A DNA stretch of 64,000 nt, taken from Reclinomonas americana ATCC 50394. Lineage: Eukaryota. The notes below the pieces were generated by a model. The model was not told where the DNA came from. It saw only the letters and a list, made by a program, of their open reading frames with translations, and made no database searches. The stretch lies in contig PS015033.1 in the NCBI GenBank assembly GCA_048213135.1, positions 1-64,000 of the forward strand. The letters are read 5' to 3'. Made by a program: the position numbers and the translations under genes. Positions 7,352 through 45,370 of this stretch are shown here, piece after piece. How positions within the stretch are numbered: position 1 is the first letter of the stretch; each line of letters opens with the position of its first letter.

Positions 7352-11580
<4,229 letters not shown>

Positions 11581-11785
11581 TTTCACCGCGCACGCACAAA
11601 AACGACGAAATCAAACGGGAAAGAGATGGAGAGGAAGGGATGCAGACGCACGCACAACGCGAAACGAGGCTGCTGTGCTGCGTGCTGCGTGCAGGCTCAC
11701 TTCTCTTTCGATGAGCGCGCGCGAAATAATGTGGACAGAGGACAGACGCGCTCGCGCTATGCACACACATTTGTTTGTTGTTATC

Positions 11786-12909: not shown

Positions 12910-13984
12910 TCACAAGCACAGCCGCGGATCGCATTGACTGCGGTACACCACAACCGCTGCCTCCTCGACCAAGAAGCAACGAAGCACCATCTCTGGGAGA
13001 CAGCGCGAATCCGGCACTCGTTCGTCTTTATCTTCTTCAGTCGCCAGCTGCATTTGTTGGACGGCACGCATGGCCGCCCGTGCCGTGTCATGTTCGAGGC
13101 GCGCGAGGCCACACGGAGAAGACCACACACGTACAGTGGTGTCCCAGCTGCCACTGACCACGTGTTGACCATCCGATGAGATAGCAACAGACTGCACCCA
13201 GTTGCTGTGTCCCTCTAGGAGCCGCAATTGATCACCACTCGCCAGCGACCACAACCGCACACTCTTGTCTTCGCTTCCACTCACCACGTACAGGCCGTTG
13301 GGGGAGACGACCACGCTTTTCACCCAGTGAGCGGGTCCCGACACCTGCTGCCACACATCCTTGCCACTTGCCAGTGATCGCAGTCGTATCGCCCCGTTAC
13401 GGCCTCCGCACACCACGTGCGCNNNNNNNNNNNNNNNNNNNNACCGTCGAGAGTCACGGCGACCGATTGCACCTCACCACCGACTTCACGCCATCGCAGT
13501 ACTTCTTCTCCACGTGCCACAGACCACACACACACTGTTTGGTCCAAGCTGCCACTGACAACGTGCTGACTGTTGGGAGTGACGGCGACAGATTTCACCG
13601 CACCAGTGTGCCCCTCCATGTGGCGCACTTGCTTACCCGTCGCCAGTGACCACACTCGCAACGTAGGATCCAGCTGCAGGCCTGCGCTCACCACGTACCG
13701 GCAGTCGGGGGAGACGGCGACACACTGCACCCAGTCAGTGTGCCCCTCCAGTCGCCACATCGTGTCACCACTCGCCAGTGACCACACACGCACGGTGTTG
13801 TCGGCACCCCCGCTCACAATGTAGCGACCATCGGCGCTGATGGCGACTGCAAACACCGCACTGCTGTGCCCTTCAAGCCGCCGCACCTCCTCACCAGTCG
13901 CCAGTGACCACACTCGCACCGTCTTGTCTCCGCTTCCACTCACCGCATGCTGACCGTCGGGGGTGATTGCCACAGACCACACGT
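12910..13984 (-). CDS. Intronless WD40 protein with conserved C-terminal tail, paralogue W1 (5' end in gap; internal gap)
   Basis: GH..V.SVA.TPDG..VVSGS.D.TVRVWSLASG repeats; tail contains DSRCLPEMVLRCFLVEEAA. Confidence 0.88.
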
Positions 13985-14217
13985 NNNNNNNNNNNNNNNN
14001 NNNNNNNNNNNNNNNNNNNNNNNNNNNNNNNNNNNNNNNNNNNNNNNNNNNNNNNNNNNNNNNNNNNNNNNNNNNNNNNNNNNNNNNNNNNNNNNNNNNN
14101 NNNNNNNNNNNNNNNNNNNNNNNNNNNNNNNNNNNNNNNNNNNNNNNNNCACACACACACGCACATACCGACACACACAAACTCCACGCACGCACACACA
14201 CACACTCCACGCACGCC

Positions 14218-15315
14218 ATGACCTCGGCTGCTCTTTTCTGTAAGTGTCTGCACGGACACTCCTCTACTGTGTCGTCTGTCGCCGTCACTCCAGATGGGCA
14301 GCACGTCGTGACTGGGAGCGAAGACTTCAAAGTGCGAGTGTGGTCGCTGGCGAGTGAGCATGAAGTGCGACAGTTGGAGGGGCACACAATGTCGGTGCGG
14401 TCTGTCGCTGTCACTCCTAACGGCCAGCACATCGTGAGTGGAAGTGAGGATGCAACAGTTCGAGTGTGGTCACTGTCGAGTGGAGAAGAAGTGCGACGGC
14501 TGAAGGGACACACGTGGGTGGTGGTGACTGTCGCAGTCACTCCCGACGGTCGGCATGTGGTGAGTGGCAGTGATGACGCAACAGTGCGAGTGTGGTCTCT
14601 GGCAAGTGGGGAGGAGGTGCGACGGTTTGAGGGACACACTTGGTGGGTTATGTCTGTCGCTGTCACTCCCGATGGTCAACACGTGGTGAGCGGCGGTGCC
14701 GATAGGAAAGTGTGTGTGTGGTCACTCGCAAATGGAGTTGAAGTGCGACGGTTTGAGGGGCATTCTGCTGGGGTGATCTCAGCTGTTGTCCCTCCCGATG
14801 GTCGTCATGTGGTGAGTGGAAGCAAGGACCGAACAATACGAGTGTGGTCTCTGGCAAGTGGCAAGGAGGTGCGACGGTTGAACGGGCACTCTGGCGATCT
14901 GGCGTCTCTCGCTGTCTCTCCCGACGGGAAGTACGTTGTGAGTGGAAGTGGTGACAGCACAGTGCGAATATGGTCTCTGGCGAGGGGAAAAGAGGTGCGA
15001 CGGCTGGAGGGACACAATGACTGGGTGCACTCTGTCGCTGTCACTCCCGACGGCCAGCACATTATGAGCGGCGGTGACGACAAGACATTGCGAGTGTGGT
15101 CCACAACATTCGGCCTCGCGCGACAGGAGCTTGAAGTGGCTCGATCGGCCATGCGAGCCGTCCAAGAGATGCAGCGTGAGATGAAAGGAGAGGAGGAGGA
15201 AGAGGAGGAGCCAGACTCACGCTGTCTGCCAGAGATGGTGCTGCGCTGCTTCATTGTCGAAGAGGCGGCTGTCATTGTTGACAGCTGCTCCATGGATGAG
15301 AGTCTCCGATTGTGA
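14218..15315 (+). CDS. Intronless 7xWD40 protein with conserved tail, paralogue W2
   Basis: Seven ~42-aa WD40 repeats followed by the tail with DSRCLPEMVLRCFIVEEAA. Confidence 0.92.
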   Translation: MTSAALFCKCLHGHSSTVSSVAVTPDGQHVVTGSEDFKVRVWSLASEHEVRQLEGHTMSVRSVAVTPNGQHIVSGSEDATVRVWSLSSGEEVRRLKGHTWVVVTVAVTPDGRHVVSGSDDATVRVWSLASGEEVRRFEGHTWWVMSVAVTPDGQHVVSGGADRKVCVWSLANGVEVRRFEGHSAGVISAVVPPDGRHVVSGSKDRTIRVWSLASGKEVRRLNGHSGDLASLAVSPDGKYVVSGSGDSTVRIWSLARGKEVRRLEGHNDWVHSVAVTPDGQHIMSGGDDKTLRVWSTTFGLARQELEVARSAMRAVQEMQREMKGEEEEEEEPDSRCLPEMVLRCFIVEEAAVIVDSCSMDESLRL

Positions 15316-15454
15316 CTTGCAGTTCTCGTCTCCTCGTCATGTCTCAGTTTCATGTCGCCATCACCTTGAAGTGAAGAGACTAGCGTGCCCCTTTTTGTTA
15401 CTTCACATCGTCCTCCAAGTCAAAGGACATGTACACACCGTCTCGACGCACGCC

Positions 15455-16546
15455 ATGACCGCAGCTGCTTCTCCGCCTGCTCTCTTCAGCAAGTGTCTGC
15501 ATGGGCACTCCACTACTGTGTGGTCCGTCGCCGTCACCCCAGATAGTCGTTACATGATCAGTGGGAGTGCTGATCACACTGTGAGAGTGTGGTCGCTGGC
15601 GAGTGGACATGTAGTGCAACGGTTGGAGGGGCACACTGACTGGGTGCGTTCTGTCGCTGTCACCCCCGACGGCCAGCTCATCGTGAGCGGCAGTGATGAT
15701 GAAGCAGTGCGAGTGTGGTCTCTGGCAAGTGGACGAGAAGTGCGACGGCTGAAGGGACACACCTGGGGGGTGGTGTCTGTTGCTGTCACTCCTGACAGTC
15801 AACACGTTGTTAGCGCGGGCGACGACGGTACAGTGCGTGTGTGGTCACTGGCGAATGGAAAGGAAGTGCGACGGTTTGAGGCACATGCGAGCGAGGTCAC
15901 CGTCACCCCCGATGGCAAGCATGTCTTGAGTGCCAGTCGAGACGGAAGTGTGCATGTATGGTCCCTGGCGAGTGGCGAAGAAGTGCGACGACTGAGGGGG
16001 CACATTCAGCCGGTGCACTGTGTCGCTAGCACACCAGATGGTCAGCATGTGGTGAGTGGAAGCAGGGACCCAACAATACGTGTGTGGTCATTGGCAAGTG
16101 GCAGGGATGTGCGACGGTTGAATGGACACGCTGACACGGTTCAAGCAGTCGCTGTCACTCCCGACGGGAAGTACGTTGTGAGTGGGGGTAACGACAACAG
16201 TGTGCGAGTGTGGTCGCTGGCAAGTGGAGAAGAGGTGCGACGGCTGGAGGGACACAATGACTGGATGCACTCAATCGTTGTCACTCCCGATGGCCAGCAC
16301 ATTGTGAGTGGCGGTGCCGACGAGACATTGCGAGTGTGGTCCACAATATTCGGCCTTGCTCGACTGGAGCTTGAAGTGGCTCGATCGGCCATGCGAGCCG
16401 TCCAAGAGATGCAGCGAGAGATGAAAGGAGAGGAGGAGGAAGAGGAGGAGCTGGACTCGCGTTGCTTACCGGAGATGGTGTTGCGCTGCTTCATTGTCGA
16501 AGAGGCGGCCGTCGTTGTTCACCGCTGCGCCATGACTGAGATTTGA
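15455..16546 (+). CDS. Intronless 7xWD40 protein with conserved tail, paralogue W3
   Basis: Same architecture as W2; shared start context acgcacgccATGACC. Confidence 0.92.
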   Translation: MTAAASPPALFSKCLHGHSTTVWSVAVTPDSRYMISGSADHTVRVWSLASGHVVQRLEGHTDWVRSVAVTPDGQLIVSGSDDEAVRVWSLASGREVRRLKGHTWGVVSVAVTPDSQHVVSAGDDGTVRVWSLANGKEVRRFEAHASEVTVTPDGKHVLSASRDGSVHVWSLASGEEVRRLRGHIQPVHCVASTPDGQHVVSGSRDPTIRVWSLASGRDVRRLNGHADTVQAVAVTPDGKYVVSGGNDNSVRVWSLASGEEVRRLEGHNDWMHSIVVTPDGQHIVSGGADETLRVWSTIFGLARLELEVARSAMRAVQEMQREMKGEEEEEEELDSRCLPEMVLRCFIVEEAAVVVHRCAMTEI

Positions 16547-16722
16547 CTCACCAGTCTTGTGTTTTTTCTCATCTCCACGGTTTCCTGTCGCCATCACCGT
16601 GAAGTAAAGAGATTGTATGTGGTCCGCCATGTGATTCTGACGCCCCTGGTAACTTCACCAACAAAGAATGCATCAGAATTCGTCCTCCTCGCTCAAGACA
16701 CTACAGCTAATCCACGCACGCC

Positions 16723-17837
16723 ATGACCACAGCTGCTTCTCCGGCTTCTGTTTTCTGCAAGTGTCTGCGCGGACACTTCTCTACTGTGTGGTCCATCGCC
16801 GTGACTCCAGATGGGCAGCACGTCGTGAGTGGGAGTGGTGATCGCACTGTGAGAGTGTGGTCGCTGGCGAGTGGGCAAGAAGTGCGGCGATTGGAGGGGC
16901 ACACTGACTGGGTGACTTCAGTTGCCGTCACTCCCGATGGTCGTCACATTATTAGTGGGAGCAGTGATNNNNNNNNNNNNNNNNNNNNCGCACTGTGCGA
17001 GTGTGGTCGCTGGCGAGTGGCCAAGAAGTGCGACGAATGGAGGGACCCACAGTGATCTCAGTCGCCATCACTCCCGACGGCCAGCATATCGTGAGTGCGG
17101 GCGTGGACCGCGCAGTGCGAGTATGGTCTCTCGCACATGGAAATGAAGTGCAACGGTTGGAGGGATGCGGACGTCTGACAAAGGTCACTGTCACTCTCGA
17201 TGGTAAGCATGTCTTGAGTGCCTGTCAAGACGGACTTGTGCGTGTGTGGTCACTCGCGAATGGAAAAGAAGTGCGACGGCTGCAGGGGCACCGTGGACAG
17301 GTGTATTCTGTTGCAGTCACTCCCGACGGTCAGCACGTGGTGAGTGGTAGCAATGACAGAATAATACGAGTGTGGTCTCTGGCGAGTGGCAAGGAGGTGC
17401 GACGGATGGAGGGACACACAAATTGGGTGTTGTTTGTCGCCGTCTCTCCCGATGGGCAGAACGTGGTCAGCGGGGGTGAGGACGGAGTTGTGCGTGTGTG
17501 GTCCCTGGCGAGTGGAGAGGAGGTGCGGCGACTGGAAGGGCACACTCGGCCAGTACGTTGTGTCACTGTCACTCCCGACGGTCAGCGTATTGTCAGTGGG
17601 GGTCTAGACGGCACCATTCGAGTGTGGTCCACGCCTTGCCAACTCGCTCGGCTGGAGCTTAACGTGGCTCGATCGGCCATGCGAGCCGTCCAAGAGATGC
17701 ATCGCGCAATGAAAGAAGAAGAGGAGGAAGATGAGGAGGCAGATTCACGCTGTCTGCCAGAGATGGTGCTGCGCTGCTTCATTGTCGAAGAGGCGGTCGT
17801 TGTTGTTCACCGCTGCGCCATGGATGACAGCCTCTGA
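16723..17837 (+). CDS. Intronless WD40 protein with conserved tail, paralogue W4 (N gap at 16969-16988)
   Basis: Two ORF halves either side of the gap give seven repeats plus the tail. Confidence 0.9.
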
Positions 17838-17939
17838 TTGTGATTCGAGTAAATCCACATTGCTTCCCCCCACGGTGTTTATCTGTTCTCTTTTTTTTCA
17901 TTAGTTCTGACTCGGCGGGAGGTTGCGCTATTGTGCACT

Positions 17940-18694
17940 CTATAGATTCGGCACGGCGGCGGCGGCCGTGGAAAACGCCTTGGAGGTGAGGGCGGCAGTT
18001 GCACCGGCGAGTGAGCCGGAAGCAGTGCCACTCACAACGCCGGTGCCACCGACGGCGGTCTTGGGATGGTGTGGGGCGGCGCACACCGGGCACTTGTCGT
18101 GCTTCTTCATCCACTCCAGCATGTGATGGAAGTGACCACCGTGACCACATGCCGGCAGTTGCATAAAGAGCCCCTTGACTGGCAGATGACTGTGCGCGGT
18201 GTTGCCCCAACAATGAGAGAGAGAACGCACACACACGCACACAAACGACTTTGCGCGCACCACACTGCACACGGCTCGAGCATCCGATGACAGTTGGTGC
18301 AAATGTGACCGTGTCGTGTCGCCTCCACTGGCTTATTGCAGTGGCCGCATGTGATGTGCACGCCGGTGGAGTTCTGGTTGCGTATTTGCACGCTGGAGAA
18401 GGGGCTGAGCGAGATCACGTCGGCGGCGCAGCTGAAAAGGCGCAGCTGCAGCAGCTGATCAATGTACGAATGCGTCCACTGCTCCGCACGGCGCGTCTGC
18501 AGTGGGCACTGCAGCCGAACGACCAGCATCATGACCACACACGATTGCACGTCGCCCTGCACAGCAATGAGAATCAAACTCGTACACGCACGCACCACAG
18601 CAGAAGCGAAGCAGTACGCACCATCTCGGAGCACGCATCAAGCATGTGCGTAATNNNNNNNNNNNNNNNNNNNNCGTAGCTTCTACCTCCACGC

Positions 18695-18740
<46 letters not shown>

Positions 18741-21700
18741 TTCTGGCACTCACGGCATTGACAGGGTGCGCTCTCCCCGCCGCGAGTCGACATTGCACAG
18801 TCGCAGAGCATGGAGTCGCTCATGCGCCATGCCAAGCACTCGCCACCGACCGCGCGTTCACGCGCCGCCTCGTTGGTCCAGCCGCCGTCCATGCCGGTAC
18901 TCACGCCTTTCTCCCCCTTTGTTCTTCGCCTCCTCCTCACGCTCTCTTTTGCTTTTATTAGGCTGAACCGGTCGACTACGGCCTGGCGCGCACTGCGACT
19001 CCACCACTCTCTTCGCCCGGTTCACTGCCTTCCAGTCCGCCGCCGCTGTTGGTGATGCCGCCGATGTACATGTACGACGCCGAGGGCAAGCCCGCACACG
19101 ACTGCGTACTTATCGAGGTCGGAGCGCATCACAAGTCATCCCGTGCAACCGCCGGCGGAGGAGCTCCGGCGTCAGTGAATGGCGGCACACACGTGCCGGC
19201 GCCCTCGTCGGCTCCGTTTGGTTCCTCCTCGGCAGTGTCGGCAAGTGAGCTGTCATCGGCGATTATGCATGCGTTTGGAGACAGCGCCACGCTGGCGTCA
19301 CCGCCGAGCGCCCCCGCTGTAGTGCCGCTGCAATGCCAGAACGTGAAGCAGGCCACCTGCACTCTCATGCACATGACATCGGGCAGCGGGCGACCACGCA
19401 ACGTCACCATGCGCGTGCGCTCGCTTGTGGGTGCTGGTACTGGTGGCACTAGCACGCCGCTGCTCGGCGCCGGCGGTTCCTCGCTGTCGTCGCTTGACGA
19501 GGTTGTGCCGGAGAGCAACGCCGGCACTGACGAGGTACTGTCACCGACTGGAGCGGACGGAGGCGGTGTGGACGCCTCCACACCCACCGTGGGTGATACG
19601 CCGTCAGCAGCGACGCCAATGGGAGGCGCCGGAGCTAGCGGCAGCGGCGGTAGCGAATCCGTTGTTCGCTCAGGCATGGGAGGCATGCACGTGACGATTG
19701 GCGGCGGTGACAATCGAGGTGTGCTCGGCCTATGTGTATACGTGCATGCGCTGTTGTTGCACTTCTGCTCACAGTGTGCTGCGTCGCAGATCTCGATCAA
19801 ATCCGGCGCTTCGGCACCGGCCTGGCCACCATGGTGCGCACGGCACCGACATTGTTCTCGCTAACGAGTCCCAAGTTCCCGCACAAGCCACGCTCGTTTG
19901 CTGTGCCGCACTTTTCCAAGTTGTACCCGGTGCTGAATGATGTGGACAATCTGTCGCTGCGCGTTNNNNNNNNNNNNNNNNNNNNNNNNNNNNNNNNNNN
20001 NNNNNNNNNNNNNNNNNNNNNNNNNNNCCACACGACAAAAGGGGGGCACGGCAGGCGTGCGTGCATACCTCGAGGGCCAGTGCTGCGGACTCGTCGGCGA
20101 GAGGTGACCGATGTCTGGAATGCGGACTCTCGCCGGCCCCCTCTTCCAGATCCGTCAGCGAATTGGTCGACATGCTCAGCGGGTAAAGCAGTACGCGGCG
20201 AAAGCGCGAGGCGTGCATGACGGGTGGCGAAACCGGACTCTGCTCCTGCGGTGTTGGAGTGGTGGCGCCCGCACTGTTTGTCTCCACAGCAAAGTCGCGC
20301 GCCAGAGCCGTATCTTCGGGATCCGGCTCCGGCAACATGTTGTTCACGTCGCCCTCCGCCAACAGCATGTCTGTGCGCGCACAGGAGAGAGGAGGTGAGG
20401 GGAGGGCAGACGACAGCAGTAGCGGCGGGAGGGAAGCGCACCTCGATCCATGGATTCAAGAAGCAGTTCATCTGTCGCATGCAGAGGGTGTGAGTGAGTG
20501 GTTGTGATTGATGCGGCGGGCGGTGGCCAACTAACCGTCAGCAGTCTCCAACAAAATCGTCTCCAGCAGCCGCCACATGTTGGCGAGGTCCTCACGCTTC
20601 GCTGCGTGGGCCACCTGATTGAAGTGGGGTGAATACCGACCTTTTTTTTTTGTGGACACACGAGGGAACCAACCTTGGCGTTGTAGGCGCACAGCGCAGT
20701 GGGTGTGTCGCCCTGCACTCGGTAGTGTCGTGCCAGATACTCGAACGGCTTGGCGTCAAACTCGAACAGGTAGCCCTCCTGCGACGCAATGAGGATGCTA
20801 TGCGTGTGTGTATGCGTGGAATAGATCCAAAGCAGACGCACCGGAATCGGCTTGTACACGCGCACGGCACGCTCGTCCAGCGGTGGTGGTTTGCTGGCAG
20901 CGGCGGCAGCGGCGGCGGCAGCGGAGGGCACGTTGCCGGGTAGCATGTGGGTGGGGATGATGCCGAGGCCGAGGGAGGATCTGGAAAGGGGGAAAGGGAG
21001 AAGGAGAATGAGGGATGGAGAATGGGGGAAAGGGAGGGAATGAGGGGGGATGCAGGAGAGACAAAAGAAGACAGAAATGGAGAAAGAGAAAGGAGAAGAT
21101 GGAAAGAAGAAGAGGGGAAAGGTGATGGGGAAGGAGGGGGAGAGAATGATGGAACGGCAGAGTGGGAAAAGGGGGAAGGAGCGAGGGAGTTGCGAGGAGG
21201 AAAGGGAGAAAACGGAGAGACGGGGAGAGGTAAAGGGGGAAGGTGGTGGAGGGAGAAGGGCGGAGGAGAGATTGGAGAAGGAGAGAGAGAGAGAGAGAGA
21301 GGCGGGGCGATGGAGAGAAAGAAGGGGAGAGAGGGAGAAGAGGAAGGAAAGGGTGAAAGAGAAAGTAGAAAATGGAAGAGAAGGACGAGAGGGGAAGGTG
21401 GTGGGGGAGGAGGGCGGCGGAAGAGGGATTGGAGAAGAGCGAGAGAGAATCGGGGCGATGGAGAGACAGAAGGGGGAGAGGAGAAGAGGAAGTAAAGGTA
21501 AAGAGAAAGAAGAAGATAGAAGAGAATGACGGGACAAGTGGAGAGCGAAGGTGGTGGAGGGAGGAGGGCGTCGGAAGAGGGATTGGAGAAGGAGCGAGAG
21601 AAGCGGAGCGAGGGAGAAGAGGAAGGAAAGGGTGAAAGAGAAAGTAGAAAATGGAAGAGAAGGACGAGAGGGGAAGGTGGTGGGGGAGGAGGGCGGCGGA

Positions 21701-24700
21701 ATAGGGATTGGAGGAGGAGAGAGAGAAGCGGGGCGAGGGAGAAGAGGAAAGAAAGGGTGAAATAGAAAGTAGAAAATGGAAGAGAAGGACGGGAATGGGG
21801 GACGAGCGAGGGAGGAGGGAAAAATACAAGAATGGAGTGTGAGGGAGGAAGAGCAACAGAGAGGGAGACATCTGGATTAAGGATAGCACGAACACAAACA
21901 GCAGGCAGAGGAAGAGAATAGGAGATTGACAGCGACATGAATCAACACTAGCGCAACTGAACACGCAACTCAAAAACTCGTGGCGACTCCTGCGCCTCCT
22001 GCAGCTTGAGCGAGTCGCTGATGGACACAAAAAGAGTGAGCAACGACAGGAGAATATCGTCACGAGCAACACAAAGCTCACCTGCCGCGTCGCCTGTCAA
22101 GAGTATGCAACTTGCAAGCGACCTCGTTGCGTGGACCGAACGAAACCGCTGTATCCGGCATGTCCTCAATCGGTCGGTAGCAGTCTTCCACACGGTAGAC
22201 GAGCACGTGGCTGTCCTTGGAGGCGGAGATCAGCTCGTGGTCGGAATTCTGCAGCTCGCGTTGTTAGCACTAGAAGTGATGCGACGACCCGAGGGAGAGA
22301 AGCACGCACTCGGGAGAAAATAATGCCGGGAATGGTGTCTCGGTGGCCGCGGGCGACATACAGAGGCACGAATGGGCTCGCCGTGTCCCACACGTGAATA
22401 TTGTTGTCGGCAGCGTGCGAGCAGCTGGCAATTTGGGTGGGAAAGTCGGGGCGCCACTTGATACGCGACACGGCCACCGTCTCAATCGCCGCCTTGGGCT
22501 GATTGTCGCGCAGATCCCACACTTTGATGAAGCGATCGCGGCCGGCGGTGGCCAGCAGCGACGAATCCGTCGGGTGCCACGCCACACTAATGGCGAAACC
22601 CACGTGTGCGTTGATTTGCAACTCGGTGGCCAGCTTGCGTACGTCCCAAATCTGCAAGGCCGGCGGCCGGTGAGACAACACGCTTGGCGACGGGAAATCG
22701 AGGACAATTGCCACACACACACACACGCACCATGACATTGCCGTTCTCGTAGGCGGCGGCCAGGAAGGTGTAGTACTTGGGGTTGAACTGAATGTCGCGG
22801 ACGGATTCGTTGGAGCCGATGGCGGGGGCGGTGCCGACGGAGCGCTCGACGCGGAGGTCCTGGGATTGGGAAACAGAATGAGAAGGGGTGAAAGGGGGAA
22901 AGGGGTGAAAGGGGAAAGGGGAAGGGGAAGGGGAAGGGGAAGGGGAAGAGAGGGAGAGGGAGTGGGAGAGAGGGAGAGGAGAGGGAGAAAGAGAGGGAGC
23001 GAGAAATAAATCTCTAATCTGCGGCGTACCCAGATCTTGATGAGGCCGTCTTGCGCTGCACTGCACAGCAGATCGGGTTGACCGCGGTTCCAGCAGATGC
23101 GGTTGACGGTGCGTGTGTGCTCGTTAAATACGCGCTCTGATAAATGGCGCGACAAGTCAGCGCAAAAGGAGGTGGATAAAGGAGAAGGAGGAGATAATGG
23201 AGAAGGAGGAGGAGGAGCGGGGAAGAGTCAGAAAGGAAGGGGGAGGAGGAGGAAGAAGAGGAGGAAGAGGTGGAAATCAGGACAACGTGGCGGGCACCAC
23301 ATTCACCCAGGGCTTTGGTTTCACACTCACCTTGCTTGGAGCCCAGCTGTCTATTGAGATCCCACAGTTGTACTGAGCCGTTGGTGGCCGCGGCGGCAAT
23401 CAGGTTCTCGTGCGCTGCGATCGGACAGTGAGGAAGGAATGGCATTTCTATCATGAGCACACCAGCAAGAGGACGCAACATTTGCACGGATGCCANNNNN
23501 NNNNNNNNNNNNNNNGGGAGGGTAAGGGCGGGGAAGGGGGAGGGGAAGGGGAAGGGGGAGGGGAAGGGGAAGGGAAAGGGGAAGAAAGGGGGAGGGGTAA
23601 GAGGGGAGGGGAAGGGAGAAGGGAGAAAGGGAGGGGAAGGGAGGGGACGGGAAGGGGGAAGGCAGGGGAATGGAATGGGTGGGATATCGAAGGGGGTGGT
23701 GATGAGATGAGATAACAGAGGTGGAGAAGTCAGGAGAATACGAGAGAAGGAAAGAGGGAGACCAATATGCAGGGGAGGCAGGTGAGTACCGTGAAGTGAG
23801 AGAGAATAAGAAGAGAATGTACCGCCGAAGGGTGGGCGAGGGGAAAGAAGGGCAGGAGGGCGAGAAGGAGGGGACGCCCCCAAAAAGTCGGTGATAAGAA
23901 GGCGAGTAAGGCGAAAGAATGGCAGCAGGAGACAGAGCGACAAAAACAATGCAAGACAAGGCGGCGGCAGAAAGATGCGCAAGCGTGAGAAAGGGGCATC
24001 GAATCTGACGATGACAGACGCAGATAATGACGAGACAAGGCAACGACATGAACTCAAACGCGCGGGGTAAAGCAAGAGGACACGAGGTGCCGTGGCGGCA
24101 AAATGAAGGCAAAATGCAAGTGTGTGTGAGAGAGAGAGAGAAGAGAGAGAAGAGAGAGAAGTGAGGGGCAAAAGAAAGAGAGAGAGGGAGAGAGGAGAGA
24201 GAGGGAGAGAGGAGAGAGAGGGAGAGAGGAGAGAGAGGGAGAGAGAGCGAGAAAGAGAAGAGAGGAGAGGGAGACAGAGAGAAACAGAAAGAAAAGCCAG
24301 TGAGAGAAGAGAGTGCACAGTCTCTTCCCTCTTCGTCATCCACGCTTCTACTTCGCACCCCTGTAACCTCTCCGCTCTCTCTCTCTCTCTCCCTCCCTCC
24401 ATCCCTCCCTCTCAATCCCTTCCCCTCCCTCACGCACGCACCTGTACGACCAGCGACCACCACATTCTGCCCATCAGGCGACTCACTCAGCGCATTCAAC
24501 GGCCCGCCCACATCCACCGCACACCGCGCATTGCTCCCGTAATACGCGCCCGGGCGATACGGTCGCGCTCCCGTCGACGACGACGACAACCCTCCCGACG
24601 ATCCCGCTCGCGTCACCGTCACAGTCACAGTCGACGCCGCCGCAGCAGTCGCTGTTGCACCAGTCACTGTCGCAGTCGCCAATGATGATGACGAGGAAGA

Positions 24701-25024
24701 AGAAGACTTTCCCGGGAGCATTGACGACGGAAGATACTCTGACGATGTCGGCAATCGATCATCATCATCCACTGCTGCATCATCATCATCATCCTCCCGC
24801 ACAGCTGCTGCAGCAGTGGCGACATTATGCTGGCGCATGCGGATGTTGTCGCGCGCAATCACTGGTGCCGAGTGTGACTGCTCAATCTCCTCCTCTGCAT
24901 CGTCTGCGTCCTCTTCATTGCGTGGAGTGCGTGGTGAGCGGGAAGGCGAGGTGAGCACGCGTGCGGTGAGAGAGGCCGCAGAGGCGACAATGGAGGAGGC
25001 GGCCGCAGAGCGCGAGCGGTCCAT
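17940..25024 (-). CDS. WDR24: GATOR2 subunit WDR24/Sea2: N-terminal WD40s, C-terminal zinc finger/RING. Exons at 18675-19965 sit on the + strand in an apparently inverted piece.
   Basis: HTRTVNRICW...SAAQDGLIKIW, ESVRDIQFNP...AAAYENGNV.IWDVRK, LATAGRDRFIKVW, GDVQSCV...QWTHSYIDQL, CGHCNK...CTNC...CAVC.LPVKGL...CGHGGH..HMLEW...CP.C. Confidence 0.88.
20960..21900. repeat. Purine-rich intron of WDR24 containing degenerate tandem duplications
   Basis: The block gaaagtagaaaatggaagagaaggacg recurs at about 21360, 21640 and 21766. Confidence 0.75.
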
Positions 25025-25676
25025 AAGTGAGTGAGATGCAAATGCGTGCGTCGCAGGACAAGCTTCAGAGTGCAAGCACATAACATGGAGCGACGTGAGA
25101 GTGCCTCTGTGGCTGTCAACACTGACATCACTGTCGCCTGCAATCCCACGGAACGCGCTTCATACTTGCGCGTGAATGATGCGGGTTTGCCTCTTGTCTC
25201 AATGCATGTGAAGTGACGCGCATGTGGGAATCCATTGGCGCCGCTGCCGAGGCGAGAGGCGACACGCATCTCCTCTCCGAAATGCAGTCTCTGTTTGGAG
25301 TTTCTGCCACCACGCTGCGTGCATGCTACTCGACTCGTAATACGTTGCCAGCAATTGTACATGTGCCAGTCGTCGCTGGCATGTGGCGCTGCTTGCGAGA
25401 GAATCGGAAGAGAAGGGGAGGAAGGTGGAAGGCAGAATGAGTTGAAGGAAGACCAACCTGCAGGAAATGGCTTGCAACTCAAAGGAAGAAGAGTAGGAGT
25501 AGATGAGGCGGGACCCCTATTTCTGTTTGCTTCCCCGCCCCGTGGCACCACTGTGACAAGTCACACTACAGTTTTACTACCGCAGCGGAAGCACCGCAAG
25601 AGGAAAAACGAAGCCTGGAGAAAAGGCCTTCATAGAGAGATACGAGACCAGCTCTCCTCCTTGTTTCCTTGCCGGT

Positions 25677-27383
<1,707 letters not shown>

Positions 27384-27772
27384 TTCTTATGTGAGGGGAA
27401 GAAAGGTAAAAGAGAGAGAGTGAGGAGAGTGTGAGGAGAATGCCGCTGTGCACACACACACACGCAGAGAGAGAGAGACGCAGTGTCAGTGAGCATGATG
27501 AGCGCAACACAACAACACACACAAGAGGAGGTCACCTGTGCGCAGGCGAGGAAGCAAAAACGTTGGTTGGTCGAGTGCGAGAAAAGCGGACGCGAGAAGT
27601 CTCGCACTACTCACACTCACAAATGTCGACCTTTTTGTCGGATAACCACTCGCCTATCTCTCTCTCATGCTCTGTCTCCCTCCTGTGCTGCATTCAGCTT
27701 GCCATTCCACGCGCGCACACAGTCGTCATTTCATTTTGCTGCTTATAAACGCTGCACAACACTTTCTGCGTG

Positions 27773-28100
27773 TTAGAGCCCGCCTCCAAGGCCGTCGTCG
27801 TGCTCATCCGGCATCTCCTGGCGCATCTCAGACACCGTCTATTATAGCACAACACAAACAAAGAACAAAAAGCGATGAGAAGTGCTGTTGCTGATTTTCG
27901 AACATGCATGTTACAAACTCACCGTGTGAATGTTCTGGCCGGCGACAGTGATGTGCGGCGAGCTGTGTGTGTGTGTGTGTACGTGTGTGTTAGTGCCTTT
28001 GCAGTTATCTCTGTGTGTGTGAGTTTGGACGTAACATGGTGTGCACGACTGGCGGCGGTGTGTAGTGGTGATGATGGTGGTGGCCTCCTCCTCCGCCCAT
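27773..28100 (-). CDS. Microprotein B (56 aa; exons 28100-28036, 27962-27923, 27838-27773)
   Basis: Spliced product MGGGGGHHHHHHYTPPPVVHTISPHITVAGQNIHTTVSEMRQEMPDEHDDGLGGGL*. Confidence 0.9.
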
Positions 28101-28429
28101 GTTTTGTGTGGTGTGTGTGTGTGGAAGAAGACTGTGGTGGCCACGATGAGCAGTGATGGAGTGAGAACGCGACTCTTCTCGCACACGCACCGACCTTGTG
28201 AATGCGACAATGTCCTCTTGTCGTCATGCATTGACTTCGTGCCTTCGCTGGTCCACAACTTTACGTTTGTGACCGGTGTGGAAGACTCACCCGACGATCT
28301 GGAATGAGTTCTTGCCGTCTTGATAGCACGTGAAGTGGCAACCAGATTGCCAATCATGCTCATGAAACGCAAAGAAAACGGACTTCAACGCGCTGGCAAA
28401 CCATCTTACGTGCCTTCACTCGCACGTGC

Positions 28430-28507
<78 letters not shown>

Positions 28508-28542
28508 CACACACACAACGGTGCAGCGATCAGGCGAGCACC

Positions 28543-29631
28543 TCACATGCACAACCGAGGATCACTACGACACCGATGAAGAACGACAGCTGCCTCCTCG
28601 ACAATGAAACAGCGAAGAACCATCTCTGGCAGGCACCGAGAATCCAGTTCTTCCTCCTCCTCCATCATCGCCTTGCGCTGCATCTCCTGAACTGCGCGCA
28701 TGGCCAACCGAGCCACATCGAGCTCGAGTCGAGCGACGCCACATGGCGAGGACCACACTCGCACAGTTTTGTCGCAGCTGCCGCTGACAATGTGCTGGCC
28801 GCAGCTAGAGACAGCGACACAAGTCACTGCTCTTGTGTGACCCCTCAGCTGCCGCACCTCATCTCCGCTTGCTAGAGACCACACACGTGCGGTGCCATCA
28901 GAACTGCCACTCACCACATGCTGTCCATTGGGAGTGACGGCGACAGACCGCAAAAACCCAGTGTGCCCAACCAGCCGTCGCAACTCTTCTCCGCTCTCCA
29001 GCGACCACACTCGCACAGCATTGTCCCAGCTCCCACTCACAACGTGTCGACTGTCGGGGGTGACGGCCACTGTCCACACTGTATTACTGTGTCCCTCCAG
29101 CCGTCGCACCTCCTGGCCGCTGACCATCGACCACACTCTCACTGTGCTGTCATCGCCAGCACTAACAACGTGCTGATTATCAAGAGTTACAGCAACCGAG
29201 TTCATGGCAGTGTGTCCCTCCAACCGTCTCACTTCCTCGCCACTCGCCAACTGCCAAATTCGCACTGTGCTGTCCCTACTCCCACTCACAACGCACTGAC
29301 CATCGGGAGAAACGGCGACAGACCACACCACATCTGTGTGTCCCTCGAACCGCCGCAGTTCCTCTCCACTCGCGAGTGACCACACACGGACTGCAGTGTC
29401 GCGGCTCCCACTCACAACGTGCATGCCGTTGGGAGTGATGGCCACACACACAACGGAAGATGAGTGCCCCTCCAACCGTCGCACTTCTTCGCCACTCGCC
29501 ATGGACCACACACGAACGGTCTTGTCGTTGCCGCCACTGACCACGTGCAAGCCATCGGGAGTGAAGGCAACAGCACGCACCAAATCACTGTGCAGACGAG
29601 TAATCTGGCAGGAGAAAGGTGGAGATGACAT
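28543..29631 (-). CDS. Intronless 7xWD40 protein with conserved tail, paralogue W5
   Basis: Starts MSSPPFSCQITRLH; seven repeats; tail with DSRCLPEMVLRCFIVEEAA. Confidence 0.92.
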   Translation of the reverse strand: MSSPPFSCQITRLHSDLVRAVAFTPDGLHVVSGGNDKTVRVWSMASGEEVRRLEGHSSSVVCVAITPNGMHVVSGSRDTAVRVWSLASGEELRRFEGHTDVVWSVAVSPDGQCVVSGSRDSTVRIWQLASGEEVRRLEGHTAMNSVAVTLDNQHVVSAGDDSTVRVWSMVSGQEVRRLEGHSNTVWTVAVTPDSRHVVSGSWDNAVRVWSLESGEELRRLVGHTGFLRSVAVTPNGQHVVSGSSDGTARVWSLASGDEVRQLRGHTRAVTCVAVSSCGQHIVSGSCDKTVRVWSSPCGVARLELDVARLAMRAVQEMQRKAMMEEEEELDSRCLPEMVLRCFIVEEAAVVLHRCRSDPRLCM

Positions 29632-29917
29632 GAGGGGAGTGGGAGGAGAGGAGGGTGGGAGCAGAGTGGAATGGAAACACCCACAAAGAGAGACGTGTGA
29701 GAGAGAGATGTTAGCGCTCGCGAGCGTGTTTGTGGATGAAAAGGACGAGGGACCACAAGCGACGTCTCCTATTGTTGAGAGAAACGCGAGGCTGGTTGAC
29801 TTCCCATGTGTATCAGCTGCCCCTTTGCATGTTAGCCACCACAGCATGTGCGTCTCAAGGCCGTACATTTTCAATGTCGATACCACTTTATTAATATTCC
29901 TTTCTCTTTTCCGAAGC

Positions 29918-31018
29918 TCATATGCATAACCGGGGGTCCCAGCGACATCGAAGTAGCACGACAGCTGCCTCCTCTAAAATGAAACAGCGGAGAACCATCT
30001 CCGGCAGGCACCGTGAATCCGCGGCCGGTTCTTCTTCCTCCTCCATCATCGCCTCACACTGCATCTCCTGAACTGCGTGCATGGCCAACCGAGACATGTC
30101 AAGCTCCTGCCGAGCGAGGCCACACGCTGAGGACCACACTCGCACGGTCTTATCCCAGCCGCCAGTGACAATGTGCTGGCCGCATGGAGAGACGGCAACA
30201 CACGACACTGCCTGGTCGTGTCCTTCTAACCGTTGCACCTCCTCTCCGCTTGCCAGCAACCACACTCGAGCGGTCTTGTCCTGACTCCCACTAATAACGT
30301 GCTGGCCATCGGAAGTGACGGAGACAGACCACACGAAATCAGTGTGCCCCACCAGTCGCCGTGTTGTTCCTTCTCCGCTCTCCAAGGACCACACTCGCAC
30401 TGTGTTGTCCCAGCTCCCACTCACAACGCGTCGACCGTCGGGGGTGACGGCCACAGACCATACCAGACTAATGTGTCCCTCCAGCCGTCGCACTTGTTCG
30501 CCACTCGCCATGGACCACACTCGAACAGTCATGTCATCGCCCGCACTCACAACGTGCTGACTATCAGGAGTGACGGCGACGGACATTACACTTCCACTGT
30601 GCCCCTTCAACCGCCGCACTCGCGATCCACTCACCAATGACCACAAGCGAACAGTCCTGTCGCTGCTCCCACTCACCACCAGCCGGCCGTCGGGAGACAC
30701 GGCGACAGATCGCACCGAGCCAGTGTGACCCTCCAACCGCCGCAGTTCCCTCCCACTCGCCAGTGACCATAGGCGAATTGTGCGATCCTCGCTCCCACAA
30801 ACTATTTCATGGCCATCTGGAGTGACGGCCACACACAGCACATGAGATGAGTGCCCCTTCAACTGTCGCACCTCTTCGCCACTCGCCATGGACCACACAC
30901 GGACTGTCTTGTCGCAGCTGCCACTGACCACGTGCATGCCATCGGGAGTGACGACGACAGACCAAACATAGTGAGTGTGTCCGTGGAGGATCTTGCAGGA
31001 GAGAGACGTCGATGACAT
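29918..31018 (-). CDS. Intronless 7xWD40 protein with conserved tail, paralogue W6
   Basis: 366-aa ORF: seven repeats plus tail. Confidence 0.93.
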   Translation of the reverse strand: MSSTSLSCKILHGHTHYVWSVVVTPDGMHVVSGSCDKTVRVWSMASGEEVRQLKGHSSHVLCVAVTPDGHEIVCGSEDRTIRLWSLASGRELRRLEGHTGSVRSVAVSPDGRLVVSGSSDRTVRLWSLVSGSRVRRLKGHSGSVMSVAVTPDSQHVVSAGDDMTVRVWSMASGEQVRRLEGHISLVWSVAVTPDGRRVVSGSWDNTVRVWSLESGEGTTRRLVGHTDFVWSVSVTSDGQHVISGSQDKTARVWLLASGEEVQRLEGHDQAVSCVAVSPCGQHIVTGGWDKTVRVWSSACGLARQELDMSRLAMHAVQEMQCEAMMEEEEEPAADSRCLPEMVLRCFILEEAAVVLLRCRWDPRLCI

Positions 31019-31307
31019 GAAGGGAGTGGGAGGGAAGATGCAGGGAGAAGGGAGAGATCAGGGAGGATGAAAACACACACAAGAGAGGTGCGACGGAGAG
31101 AGTGGGTTCGATGGAAGGACCTGGGACTGCGAAGCGACGTCTATCTGCGATGGCTGGTTGACTTCCCATTTGTATTAGCTGCTCCCATTTCCACCGCACT
31201 GGCGTCACAACGTCGTGCATTGTCAACTTCGATCACAACACACTTGACGGGTTTACTTGGACGTCTTCCCTCTTTTTCTCTCTTCTGCAGCATCCAGACA
31301 CTGCAAC

Positions 31308-32422
31308 TCACATCCACATCCAAGGATCATTGTGGCATCGATGAAGAACGACAGCTGCCTCCTCGACAATGAAACAGCGGAGAACCATCTCTGGCAGGCA
31401 CCGTGAATCCGGTTCTTCCTCCTCTCCCTCCATCATCGCCTTGCGCTGCATCTCCTGAACTGCGCGCATGGCCAACCGAGCCACATCGAGCTCCAGCCGA
31501 GCGAGGCCACATGGCGAGGACCACACTCGCACAGTATCGTCCCAGCTGCCGCTGACAATGTGCTGGCCGCAGCGAGAGACGGCGACACAAGTCACTTCTT
31601 TTGTGTGACCTCTCAGTTGCCGTGCATCCTGCTCTTCACTCGCCAAGGACCACACACGCACAGTCTTGTCACAGCACCCACTCACGACGTGCTGGCCATC
31701 GGGAGTAACGGCAACAGAATACACCAAACGACTGTGATCCAACATTCGCATCTCCTCGCCACTCGCCAGAGACCAAATACCCACAATGCCGTCTTCGCAT
31801 CCACTCACTGCGTGCTGACCGTCGGGAGTGACAGCGACTGATCGCACCCGGTCAGTGTGGCCCTCGAATCGTAACACTTCCTCCCCACTCGCCCACGACC
31901 ACACCCGCGCAGTCCTATCCTCGCTGCCAGTGACAATGCGTTCCCCGTCGGGAGTGACGGTGACAGCAAACACCACACTTTGGTGTCCCTCCAATCGTCT
32001 CACCTCATCGCCACTCGCCAACAGCCAGATTCGCACTGTGCTGTCCCTACCCCCACTCACAACGTACCCACCGTCGGGAGAAACGGCGACAGACCACACC
32101 TCATCTGTGTGTCCCANNNNNNNNNNNNNNNNNNNNCGAACCGCCGCAGTTCTCTCCCACTCGCGAGTGACCATACTCGCACTGTCTTGTCGCTGCTCCC
32201 ACTGACCACGTGCATGCCGTCGGGGGTGACGGCCACTGCCAACACCTCACCAGTGTGCCCCTCCAACTGTCGCACTTCTTCTCCACTCGCCATGGACCAC
32301 ACTCGCACGGTCTTGTCGTTGCTGCCACTGACCACGTGCATGCCATCGGGAGTGACGACGACAGACCAAACAAAGTCATAGTGTCCGCGAATGATCTTGC
32401 AGGAGAGAGGCGCAGATGACAT
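31308..32422 (-). CDS. Intronless WD40 protein with conserved tail, paralogue W7 (N gap at 32117-32136)
   Basis: Starts MSSAPLSCKIIRGH; seven repeats across the gap plus tail. Confidence 0.9.
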
Positions 32423-32758
32423 GCTGGGAGTGTGAGGAGAGGAGGGTGGAATGGAGAACAAGAGAGAGGTGTGCGCAATCGTGCGCGCCGAATGTNNNNN
32501 NNNNNNNNNNNNNNNNNNNNNNNNNNNNNNNNNNNNNNCGGTGCGTGTGGAGGGGACGTGGGACCACAGTGCAAAGTCTACTTCTCTTACGGTGGGCGTG
32601 GTAGCGTGACTCCCCATGCGTATCAGCTGCTCCTACTGCCACCACACTGGCAACGAAAGGCCATTCATTATCCATATTGATTCCACTTTCATTTTTGACG
32701 GGTTTACTTGGACCACTTCCCTCTTTTTCTCTCTTCTGAAGTATCCAGACACTGCAAC

Positions 32759-33893
32759 TCACATCCACATCCGAGGATCACAGTGACATCGATGAAGAAC
32801 GACAGCTGCCTCCTCGACGATAAAACAGCGGAGAACCATCTCTGGCAGGCACCGTGAATCCGGTTCTTCCTCCTCCTCCTCCGTCGCCTCACGCTGCATC
32901 TCTTGAACCGCGCGCATGGCCAACCGAGACACGTCAAGCTCGAGTTGAGCGACGCCACGTGGCGAAGACCACACTCGCACAGTCTTGTCGTAGCTTCCAC
33001 TCACAACGTGCTGACCGCAGCGAGAGACAGCGACTGAAAGCACCCACGAAGTGTGTAGCTCCAGCCGTCGCACCTCCTCTCCGTTCTCCATANNNNNNNN
33101 NNNNNNNNNNNNTTTACACCGTGCGGTCAACACGTGGTGAGTGGCAGCCTTGACAACACGGTCCGCGTGTGGTCAGTGGCGAGCGGAGAAGAGGTGCGAC
33201 GTCTGGAGGGACATAATGGAGGGGTGTGCGCGGTCGCCATCGCTCCCGACGGTCGCCACGTTGTCAGTGGGAGTGACGACAAGAGCGTGCGCGTGTGGTC
33301 ACTGGCGAGTGGGGAAGAGGTGCAAAGGATGGAGGGGCACGCGGGATGGGTGCAGTGTGTCGCCGTCACTCCCAATGGTCAGCATGTGGTGAGTGGGAGT
33401 TTGGATACGACGGTGCGAGTGTGGTCNNNNNNNNNNNNNNNNNNNNGGCGACGCAAAACACCACTCCCGTGTGCCCCTCCAAGCGCCGCACTTGTTCGTC
33501 TTTTCCACTTGCCCATGACCACACCCGCACTGTCTTGTCATAACTCCCGCTCACCACCAGCCGACCGCAGGGTGAAACAGCCACCGATCGCACCGCCCCA
33601 GTGTGCCCCTCCAGCCGCCGCACCTCTGCACCACTCGCCAGCGACCACACTCTCACCGTCATGTCCCAGCTGCCACTCACAACGTGGCGAGCGTCGGGGG
33701 TGAACGCGACAGAAAACACCTCTGCGCTGTGTCCCTCCAGCTGCTGCACTTCTTCTCCACTCGCCATGGACCACACTCGCACGGTCTCGTCGCCACTCCC
33801 ACTGGCAATGTGCTGGCCGTCGGGCGAGATGGCGACCGAGCGCACAAAGTCGGTGTGGCCGCGGATGATCTTGCAGAAGAGAGGTTTGTGCAT
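32759..33893 (-). CDS. WD40 protein with conserved tail, paralogue W8; middle piece 33113-33426 inverted between gaps
   Basis: Starts MHKPLFCKIIRGH. Flipping the middle piece joins ...VFCVA|FTPCGQ... and ...VRVW|MENGEEV, giving seven repeats plus tail. Confidence 0.85.
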
Positions 33894-45269: not shown

Positions 45270-45350
<81 letters not shown>

Positions 45351-45370
45351 NNNNNNNNNNNNNNNNNNNN

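What the first reader, a model, noticed from the sequence alone, without database searches (positions are those of the whole stretch)
12910..33893. Eight WD40 paralogues with an invariant C-terminal motif: candidate expanded ubiquitin-ligase adaptor family
Seen in sequence: two clusters of four genes (12910-17837 and 28543-33893). Each encodes one 7-repeat propeller plus a ~70-aa tail: a helical segment (LARLELDVARLAMRAVQEMQ-like), a poly-Glu linker, then DSRCLPEMVLRCF, identical in all eight, followed by [IL][VL]EEA. Established: repeat domain plus C-terminal cullin adaptor is a known design (WD40-SOCS box WSB proteins; ankyrin plus C-terminal F-box/PRANC proteins), and F-boxes begin LPxE[IV]L. 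Inference: LPEMVLRCFI is an F-box- or SOCS-like Skp1/Elongin-C binding element, making these variable substrate receptors on a constant effector handle. The resemblance is by eye only.
Basis: partly seen in the sequence, partly recalled or inferred. Interest (0 to 1): 0.8.

Follow-up and report, generated by a model that had tools for sequence, protein, structure and literature searches.

The report
WD40 family with invariant orphan tail
Eight neighbouring genes of an unidentified eukaryote encode seven-bladed WD40 propellers whose binding face varies freely while a short C-terminal helix motif never changes, which suggests many different receptors sharing one docking handle that matches no known F-box or SOCS box.

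Summary
Eight single-exon WD40 genes lie in two clusters (12910-17837 and 28543-33893). Each has seven blades and a roughly 70-residue tail: an amphipathic helix, a poly-Glu linker, then a helix beginning DSRCLPEMVLRCF, identical in all eight.

The paralogues are old (pooled pS about 0.5). In the motif, 11 of 13 codons carry synonymous variants and there is no amino-acid change (dN/dS 0.005, against 0.28 for the propeller scaffold). The 21 canonical top-face hot-spot positions are nearly saturated with replacements (pN 0.64). "Variable face, constant handle" is therefore supported.

The F-box/SOCS reading is not supported:
- No Pfam F-box, PRANC or SOCS match in any of 10 tails at E<=10.
- No relevant PDB sequence match.
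- hhalign against six viral F-boxes gave probability 0.29%.
- The tail lacks the SOCS LPΦP signature.

The tail models as an independent helical hairpin. It is almost absent from public data: of 1.84 billion representatives, two matched, one of them a very different propeller with the same tail.

Best reading: a lineage-restricted docking or assembly module whose partner is unknown. Skp1 or Elongin C binding remains possible but has no support.

The parts
12910..13984 (-). g1: WD40 paralogue. Six blades are visible. The N-terminal blade is lost in the N gap 13985-14149, and a 20-N gap lies at 13423-13442. Tail 12913-13128; motif 12973-13011.
14218..15315 (+). g2: complete 365-aa gene, seven blades plus tail (15094-15312); motif 15214-15252.
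15455..16546 (+). g3: complete 363-aa gene, seven blades plus tail (16334-16543); motif 16454-16492.
16723..17837 (+). g4: seven blades, with a 20-N gap (16969-16988) inside blade 2. Tail 17622-17834; motif 17742-17780.
28543..29631 (-). g5: complete 362-aa gene, seven blades plus tail (28546-28758); motif 28606-28644.
29918..31018 (-). g6: complete 366-aa gene (P0001), used for the models. Propeller residues 1-297, helix 298-325, poly-Glu linker 326-337, helix 338-360. Tail 29921-30139; motif 29981-30019.
31308..32422 (-). g7: seven blades, with a 20-N gap at 32117-32136. Tail 31311-31526; motif 31371-31409.
32759..33893 (-). g8: seven blades in three pieces: C-terminal piece 32762-33092 (-), middle piece 33113-33426 read on the + strand (a misoriented contig between two 20-N gaps), and N-terminal piece 33447-33893 (-). 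Tail 32762-32974; motif 32822-32860.

Best explanation
These are eight old paralogues of one protein design: a consensus-type seven-bladed WD40 propeller joined by a flexible poly-Glu linker to a small, independently folding C-terminal helical hairpin.

The propeller's top-face contact positions have diverged almost freely, giving many different ligand specificities. The second helix of the hairpin (DSRCLPEMVLRCF[IL][VL]EEA...) is hydrophobic on all sides and absolutely conserved.

I infer that this helix is buried in one shared partner or complex. The tail would then act as a common docking handle that brings differently specific propellers to the same machinery.

Shown: the anatomy, the age of the paralogues, the opposite selection regimes on face and tail, the modularity of the tail, and the lack of detectable relation to F-box, PRANC or SOCS.

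Inferred: that the tail docks to a shared partner, and that the propeller faces bind different ligands.

The partner is unknown. A cullin-ligase adaptor is one candidate among several.
For: 1. The motif is under extreme purifying selection in old paralogues.
- Pooled pS is 0.62 and pN 0.007, giving dN/dS 0.005. The residual pN is a path artefact; there is no amino-acid change.
- The comparison values are 0.28 for the scaffold and 0.24 for helix 1 plus linker. These come from 6 genes and 15 pairs.
- 11 of 13 motif codons carry synonymous variants.

2. Variability is concentrated on the ligand face.
- The 21 hot-spot columns have pN 0.64 and pS 0.70, and some pairs exceed 1.
- Their mean pairwise amino-acid difference is 0.89, against 0.34 for the other 271 propeller columns. 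None of 100000 random 21-column sets reached this value.
- Within-repeat entropy peaks at H+3, H+5 and D-1. These are the R1-2, R1 and D-1 positions of PMC3419727 (passages).

3. The tail is modular.
- P0004, found in 1.84 billion representatives, has a divergent propeller: 27% identity to P0001 over the full-length alignment, with PQQ_2 as best Pfam family.
- It ends in ...PDRRCLPEMILRCFLVED... at the same distance from the C-terminus.

4. The tail appears to fold on its own.
- The AF2 full-length model gives a propeller with pLDDT above 90, helix 298-325, a disordered poly-Glu stretch, and helix 338-360.
- The tail alone gives the same two helices at equal or higher pLDDT (80-86 and 77).
- Its structural neighbours are generic antiparallel helical hairpins (best Z 8.0).

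5. Helix 1 is strongly amphipathic (muH 0.30-0.68). Helix 2 has almost no hydrophobic moment (0.07-0.14) and positive mean hydrophobicity in 9 of 10 tails, so a two-helix hairpin alone cannot bury it.

6. Blades keep positional orthology between genes: same-index identity is 0.62 against 0.54 for different-index blades, and the best match has the same index in 77 of 164 cases. The family therefore grew by whole-gene duplication followed by divergence of the face.
Against: - No partner has been identified and no binding has been shown.
- No RNA or protein evidence that the genes are expressed could be obtained.
- dN/dS at the hot-spot positions is about 0.7 pooled and near saturation, so relaxed constraint cannot be separated from diversifying selection.
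- Choosing the three hot-spot positions was guided partly by the entropy profile of the same data. Only 10 of the 21 most variable propeller columns are hot-spot columns.
- The tail models rest on 10 sequences and reach only pLDDT 68-86.
- I could not inspect model coordinates, so packing of the tail against the propeller is not excluded by the structure itself.
- The whole genome was not available, so I could not test whether the tail is also joined to other domain types.
Confidence: 0.45

Rival explanations
1. Self-association module. The helical hairpins of two or more family members pair into a four-helix bundle, making homo- or hetero-oligomers of propellers. Compatibility among all paralogues would then explain why the motif cannot change.
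For: - The tail alone models as an antiparallel hairpin. Its nearest solved structures are hairpins that work as dimers or bundles: designed hetero-oligomers, ESAT-6/CFP-10-type pairs and Mediator Med11/22. All are at generic Z of 8.0 or below.
- Helix 2 is hydrophobic on all faces.
- The motif is strictly invariant across 8 paralogues and P0003.
Against: - The structural matches are non-specific for helical hairpins, as the tool's own note says.
- No oligomer prediction was run.
- The invariant polar residues (D, S, R, E) and the Pro fit a specific hetero-interface at least as well.
Confidence: 0.25
2. The LPEMVLRCF helix is a truncated, C-terminal F-box-like (PRANC-like) or BC-box-like element that binds Skp1 or Elongin C, making the family substrate receptors of a cullin-RING ligase.
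For: - The architecture matches known designs: a repeat domain, a linker, then a short C-terminal helix beginning with Leu-Pro.
- Passages of PMC4353913 state that poxviral F-boxes keep only two of three helices, that CP77 binds Skp1 with roughly the first helix, and that most contacts come from helix 1 and the preceding loop.
- The only local alignment hhalign produced placed PEMVLRCF on the P-x-x-hydrophobic start of the viral F-box helix 1.
Against: - That hhalign alignment is not significant: 8 columns, probability 0.29%, E 0.21.
- No Pfam F-box, F-box-like, PRANC or SOCS_box match at E<=10 in 10 of 10 tails. Six divergent giant-virus F-boxes were found by the same Pfam model at E of 1e-6 to 2e-4.
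- No F-box or SOCS chain appeared in the PDB profile search or among the 50 listed structural neighbours of the tail.
- The tail has LPEM, not the SOCS Cul5-box signature LPΦP, and no BC box precedes it (PMC4812663 passages; BC-box consensus recalled from memory).
- AF2 draws one continuous 23-24-residue helix rather than a helix-loop-helix.
Confidence: 0.1
3. Intramolecular element. The hairpin folds back on its own propeller as a structural cap or an auto-inhibitory plug and binds no external partner.
For: - In the full-length model helix 2 still reaches pLDDT 68-77, which could reflect packing against the propeller.
- Helix 1 follows the last strand directly.
Against: - The same tail sits on a propeller only 27% identical over the full-length alignment (P0004). 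A co-evolving intramolecular interface would not be expected to keep 11 of 13 motif residues unchanged.
- The tail alone is modelled with equal or higher confidence.
- The two helices are separated by a disordered poly-Glu linker of variable length.
- No top-face or scaffold residue shows matching invariance, apart from the general WD signature.
Confidence: 0.15

Closest known systems
WSB1/WSB2 (WD40 repeat and SOCS box proteins; substrate receptors of Cul5 ligases)
   Same: A single WD40 propeller followed by a short C-terminal helical adaptor element (PMC4812663, abstract and passages).
   Different: - No SOCS_box Pfam match.
- No LPΦP Cul5 box, and no recognisable BC box.
- The tail here is an orphan hairpin with a poly-Glu linker.
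- The family is an eight-fold local expansion with a hypervariable face.
ANK/PRANC proteins of poxviruses, Orientia and Nasonia (C-terminal truncated F-box)
   Same: A multigene family with a variable repeat domain, a linker and a constant short C-terminal helix that begins with Leu-Pro. It works as a handle on a host complex (PMC4353913 passages).
   Different: - The repeat type is WD40, not ankyrin.
- No PRANC or F-box profile match.
- The genes sit in a eukaryotic nuclear context with intron-containing neighbours, not in a virus or bacterium.
HET-E/HET-D/HNWD NACHT-WD40 receptors of Podospora (fungal NLRs)
   Same: Highly regular WD repeats in which a few positions forming the interaction surface vary, and a paralogous gene family (PMC1805685, one passage).
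   Different: - There is no NACHT or other N-terminal effector domain; the protein is only a propeller plus tail.
- Blades keep positional orthology, and there is no sign of repeat shuffling or concerted evolution.
- dN/dS at the face is not clearly above 1.
Highly repetitive bacterial and designer propellers (PDB 2ymu, 5yzv, WRAP-T 7big)
   Same: The best structural and sequence matches of the propeller: 2ymu_A Z 50.8, rmsd 1.3 over 289 residues, 43% identity; 7big_A Z 50.6; 5yzv_B Z 49.8.
   Different: None of the 50 listed matches extends beyond model residue 299, so the tail has no counterpart in them.

Membership tests
WD40 repeat beta-propeller (PF00400) | Seven WD repeats forming a closed propeller | tested here: met
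   - PF00400 E 9.6e-83 with 7 stretches in P0001.
- AF2 model has 28 strands with pLDDT above 90.
- PDB matches reach Z of about 50.
F-box (PF00646 / PF12937) | Significant profile match to the F-box models | tested here: not met
   No F-box family at E<=10 in P0002 or in any of the 10 tails. HMMER's filters drop most matches above E of about 0.1.
F-box (PF00646 / PF12937) | Profile-profile similarity to bona fide F-box segments | tested here: not met
   hhalign of A3 against A6 (six giant-virus F-box-like segments): 8 columns, probability 0.29%, E 0.21. The F-box profile is small, so sensitivity is limited.
F-box (PF00646 / PF12937) | About 40-50 residues forming three short helices after the Leu-Pro | tested here: inconclusive
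   Only 28-31 residues follow LP. AF2 draws one continuous helix (338-360; 44-67) at pLDDT 68-77. Truncated F-boxes exist (PMC4353913).
F-box (PF00646 / PF12937) | Binds Skp1 | not testable with these tools
   This needs the organism's own Skp1 and a binding assay. The genome is not held. See Tried and rejected.
PRANC (PF09372) | Profile match; C-terminal position after a repeat domain and linker | tested here: not met
   There is no PF09372 match at E<=10. Only the architecture (repeat domain, linker, C-terminal helix) is alike.
SOCS box (PF07525) | BC box followed by a Cul5 box containing LPΦP, about 40 residues in all | tested here: not met
   No PF07525 match. The tail reads LPEM, not LPΦP (signature from PMC4812663 passages).
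Fungal HNWD / NLR WD40 receptors | N-terminal NACHT (STAND) domain fused to the WD repeats | tested here: not met
   The complete genes are 362-366 aa and start about 10 residues before blade 1. There is no NACHT or NB-ARC among the Pfam matches listed for them (best 25 of 59-67 shown).

The most novel reading that the evidence does not exclude
The tail is a previously undescribed adaptor-docking domain. It plugs a diversifying repertoire of WD40 sensors into one shared effector hub, such as a cullin-type ligase or an NLR-like signalling platform encoded elsewhere. That would make it a 'split' recognition system of an undersampled protist lineage, with receptor and effector as separate polypeptides joined by an invariant 13-residue helix.
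Probability: 0.25. Interest if true: 0.75.

Novelty: new variant of a known kind. Interest (0 to 1): 0.45.

Why it matters
Families built as a variable repeat domain plus a constant handle are how cells and their parasites direct many targets to one machine (F-box, SOCS-box, PRANC and NLR proteins). This family appears to use the same logic, but its handle has no detectable relative among Pfam families or solved structures. Across 1.84 billion representative proteins it has only two relatives. Identifying its partner could define a new adaptor domain. It would also show which effector pathway an undersampled eukaryotic lineage has coupled to a diversified WD40 repertoire. The invariant 13-residue motif is a ready handle for pull-downs and for genome mining once more genomes of the lineage exist.

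Tried and rejected
- **Own genome.** Not held, so the tail could not be searched for genome-wide.
- **Word-based protein searches.** The tail region in proteins of 201-641 aa gave none. Tail profile A3 in longer proteins gave only P0004 of 7999 scored candidates. Whole P0004 gave only itself among 2493 candidates.
- **Metagenome and viral contig scans with A3.**
  - In the metagenome scan, 337 stretches matched a pattern and 1 passed tblastn. That locus (L001) lies antisense inside a bacterial P-type ATPase ORF and is a chance match.
  - In the viral scan, 202 stretches matched and 2 passed (L002, L003). Both are the giant-virus RNA polymerase largest subunit carrying 'LQPEMVLRCFQR', a chance eight-residue match.
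- **ESM Atlas on the tail.** Best score 0.75 to unnamed clusters, below the tool's lead level.
- **Foldseek of the tail model against PDB.** 0 matches at E<=10. The VIA wide search gave only generic helical hairpins at Z of 8.0 or below, and no F-box or SOCS chain among the 50 rows listed.
- **Sequencing runs.** None was listed and no RNA holder was listed.
- **Complex prediction.** The tail (A3) was tested with a stand-in Skp1 from a giant-virus contig (A5). The verdict was 'no answer': score 0.02 against a mark of 0.34, the controls were not run, and the alignments were not used by the tool. This is no evidence either way. The stand-in comes from another organism, and the partner's fold was uncertain in at least one run.
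- **Other readings considered and rejected.**
  - Zinc or Fe-S site: only two Cys (C-x7-C) are invariant, and the His and third Cys vary.
  - CaaX or Rab prenylation: the terminal Cys is at position -2 and is absent in 5 of 10 tails.
  - Tail-anchor transmembrane segment: R, E and E lie inside the helix.
  - Allelic or assembly duplicates: pS between copies is about 0.5.
- **Rfam and tRNA scans of the window.** Nothing found.
- **Organism.** Not identified.

Full report
**What is there**

The window is eukaryotic nuclear DNA, about 56% G+C, in a draft assembly with 22 N runs. Its neighbouring genes are split into exons: GNAT, kinesin, a WDR24/MIOS-like WD40 gene, LRR, FERM, MFS and PTH2.

A six-frame search finds LPEM at eight places. 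Each lies inside DSRCLPEMVLRCF, 28-31 residues before a stop, at the end of a WD40 frame.

The eight genes form two clusters:
- g1 (-) and g2-g4 (+) at 12910-17837;
- g5-g8 (-) at 28543-33893.

Four genes are contiguous single ORFs of 362-366 aa (g2, g3, g5, g6). The other four are cut by scaffold gaps. The middle of g8 (33113-33426) lies on the opposite strand between two 20-N gaps, which is most simply a misoriented contig.

All eight have seven blades; g1 shows six plus a gap. No further member lies elsewhere in the window. Spacers between tandem members are only about 140-340 bp.

**Is the invariance meaningful?**

Yes. The paralogues are old. Pooled synonymous difference is about 0.5 in every region, and the 3' flanks lose similarity right after the stop codon.

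Within the 13 motif codons, 11 carry two to four synonymous codons. Only GAG and ATG are fixed, and there is no amino-acid change.

Nei-Gojobori estimates over six genes and 15 pairs:

| Region | pN | pS | dN/dS |
|---|---|---|---|
| Motif (13 codons) | 0.007 | 0.62 | 0.005 |
| Propeller scaffold | 0.20 | 0.51 | 0.28 |
| Helix 1 plus linker | 0.16 | 0.47 | 0.24 |
| Residues after the motif | 0.24 | 0.55 | 0.29 |
| 21 top-face hot-spot columns | 0.64 | 0.70 | 0.71 |

In the six-gene alignment, 142 of 371 columns are invariant. The motif is a run of 14 and the next longest run is 5. Only 66 of 100000 shuffles of the column flags reach a run of 13.

**The propeller**

Pfam sees only WD40 and propeller families, with seven WD40 stretches. 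AF2 gives a closed seven-bladed propeller with pLDDT above 90.

The best solved matches are highly regular propellers:
- 2ymu_A: Z 50.8, rmsd 1.3 over 289 residues, 43% identity;
- designer WRAP-T 7big_A: Z 50.6;
- Thermomonospora 5yzv_B: Z 49.8.

No listed match extends past model residue 299.

Aligning 26 repeat units shows an almost fixed scaffold, GH..V.SVAVTPDGQHVVSGS.D.TVRVWSLASGEEVRRLE. Entropy peaks at H+3, H+5 and the residue before the conserved Asp. These are the R1-2, R1 and D-1 top-face hot spots of Wu et al. 2012 (PMC3419727; I read passages).

Those 21 columns have a mean pairwise amino-acid difference of 0.89, against 0.34 for the other 271 propeller columns. None of 100000 random column sets reached 0.89.

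This does not prove positive selection. The sites are near saturation, their choice was partly guided by the same data, and only 10 of the 21 most variable columns are hot-spot columns.

Blades keep positional orthology. Same-index identity is 0.62 against 0.54 for different-index blades, and the best match has the same index in 77 of 164 cases. The family therefore arose by whole-gene duplication and not by the repeat shuffling described for fungal HNWD genes (PMC1805685, one passage).

**The tail**

In the full-length model the tail consists of helix 298-325, a disordered poly-Glu stretch 326-337, and helix 338-360 with pLDDT 68-77.

Modelled alone, it gives the same two helices (5-33 and 44-67) at pLDDT 80-86 and 77. 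Its nearest solved structures are generic antiparallel hairpins at Z of 8.0 or below. Foldseek finds nothing.

Helix 1 is strongly amphipathic (muH 0.30-0.68). Helix 2 has almost no hydrophobic moment (0.07-0.14) and is hydrophobic all round. A two-helix hairpin cannot bury it, so it needs a further surface: a partner, another copy, or the propeller.

**Distribution**

An hmmsearch of the eight-tail profile against 1.84 billion representatives found two proteins:
- P0003, a 116-aa fragment of the same family (E 3e-27).
- P0004, 381 aa (E 1.6e-4). Its propeller is divergent: 27% identity to P0001 over the full-length alignment, with PQQ_2 as best Pfam family. It ends ...PDRRCLPEMILRCFLVED... 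at the same distance from the C-terminus.

Further word-based searches and scans of metagenome and viral contigs added only chance matches. The tail is thus a portable module of a very poorly sampled lineage. Its retention on a very different propeller argues against it being an integral part of the propeller.

**Test of the F-box/SOCS idea**

- None of the 10 tails matches F-box, F-box-like, PRANC or SOCS_box in Pfam at E<=10. The only weak hits are DUF4761, TatA_B_E, Phage_Mu_Gp27 and CATIP_N at E of 0.013 or above.
- The PDB profile search returns only a poly-Glu match to cyclin D1, E=6.
- To allow a profile-profile test, I fetched real Skp1 and F-box sequences. A short Skp1 motif located Skp1 genes on giant-virus contigs. 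Three intact ORFs are Pfam Skp1 plus Skp1_POZ.
- The virus bin holding one of those Skp1 genes has six F-box-like matches at E of 1e-6 to 2e-4.
- hhalign of the tail profile against these six F-box segments aligned only PEMVLRCF to the start of F-box helix 1: 8 columns, probability 0.29%, E 0.21.
- The SOCS Cul5-box signature LPΦP (PMC4812663, passages) is not met.

Membership in these families is therefore not supported. Function like a truncated F-box is not excluded. A poxvirus review states that an F-box reduced to about its first helix still binds Skp1 (PMC4353913, passages).

**Verdict**

The best-supported reading is a lineage-restricted family of WD40 receptors with diversified top faces. 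They share an orphan C-terminal helical-hairpin handle that docks them to one partner or complex (confidence 0.45).

Rivals:
- self-association through the hairpin (0.25);
- an intramolecular cap (0.15);

The design is known, but the handle is new. The partner, the expression of the genes, the organism, and the genome-wide spread of the tail remain open, because neither the genome nor any sequencing run was available.

Noticed in passing
window 33113-33426: This piece holds two and a half WD blades of g8 and reads on the + strand, while both flanking pieces of the gene read on the - strand. It lies between two 20-N gaps, so it is probably a misoriented contig in the scaffold.
   Followed up: partly
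window 22166-25081 (-): A WDR24/MIOS-like WD40 gene is split by long CT-rich, low-complexity introns. It separates the two clusters and is unrelated to the family.
   Followed up: partly
window 15313-15454, 16547-16722, 29632-29917, 31019-31307, 32423-32758: The spacers between tandem family members are very short, about 140-340 bp. Those of g6, g7 and g8 are still alignable to one another. A long (TG)n run follows the stop codon of g5.
   Followed up: no
L002 and L003 (giant-virus contigs): The RNA polymerase largest subunit of two giant-virus contigs carries 'LQPEMVLRCFQR', an eight-residue identity with the motif. I judge it a chance match in an unrelated protein.
   Followed up: partly
G001 (giant-virus bin): L012:748-1233(-), L020-L025: One giant-virus bin of 232 kb encodes a canonical 162-aa Skp1 and at least six F-box-like proteins. 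This amounts to a viral SCF adaptor set.
   Followed up: partly
L010, L011, L016, L017 (viral records of 1.8-2.5 Mb): The Skp1 genes of these very large viral genomes are interrupted near the 3' end by one or two short insertions that read like introns. The conserved C-terminal Skp1 residues resume after the insertions in L010 and L011.
   Followed up: no
window 9410-11586 (-), 43959-45510 (-), 46712-47140 (+), 50237-51019 (-), 1112-1570 (-): Fragments of the neighbouring genes match kinesin motor (cut by a 535-N gap), FERM, MFS transporter, PTH2 peptidyl-tRNA hydrolase and GNAT acetyltransferase. All appear to be split into exons.
   Followed up: no
C-termini of the 8 genes, P0003 and P0004: The last residue is always hydrophobic (M, I, L or W). 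In 7 of 10 tails the residue at position -2 is hydrophobic as well, a pattern like class II PDZ ligands (pattern recalled from memory, not tested).
   Followed up: no
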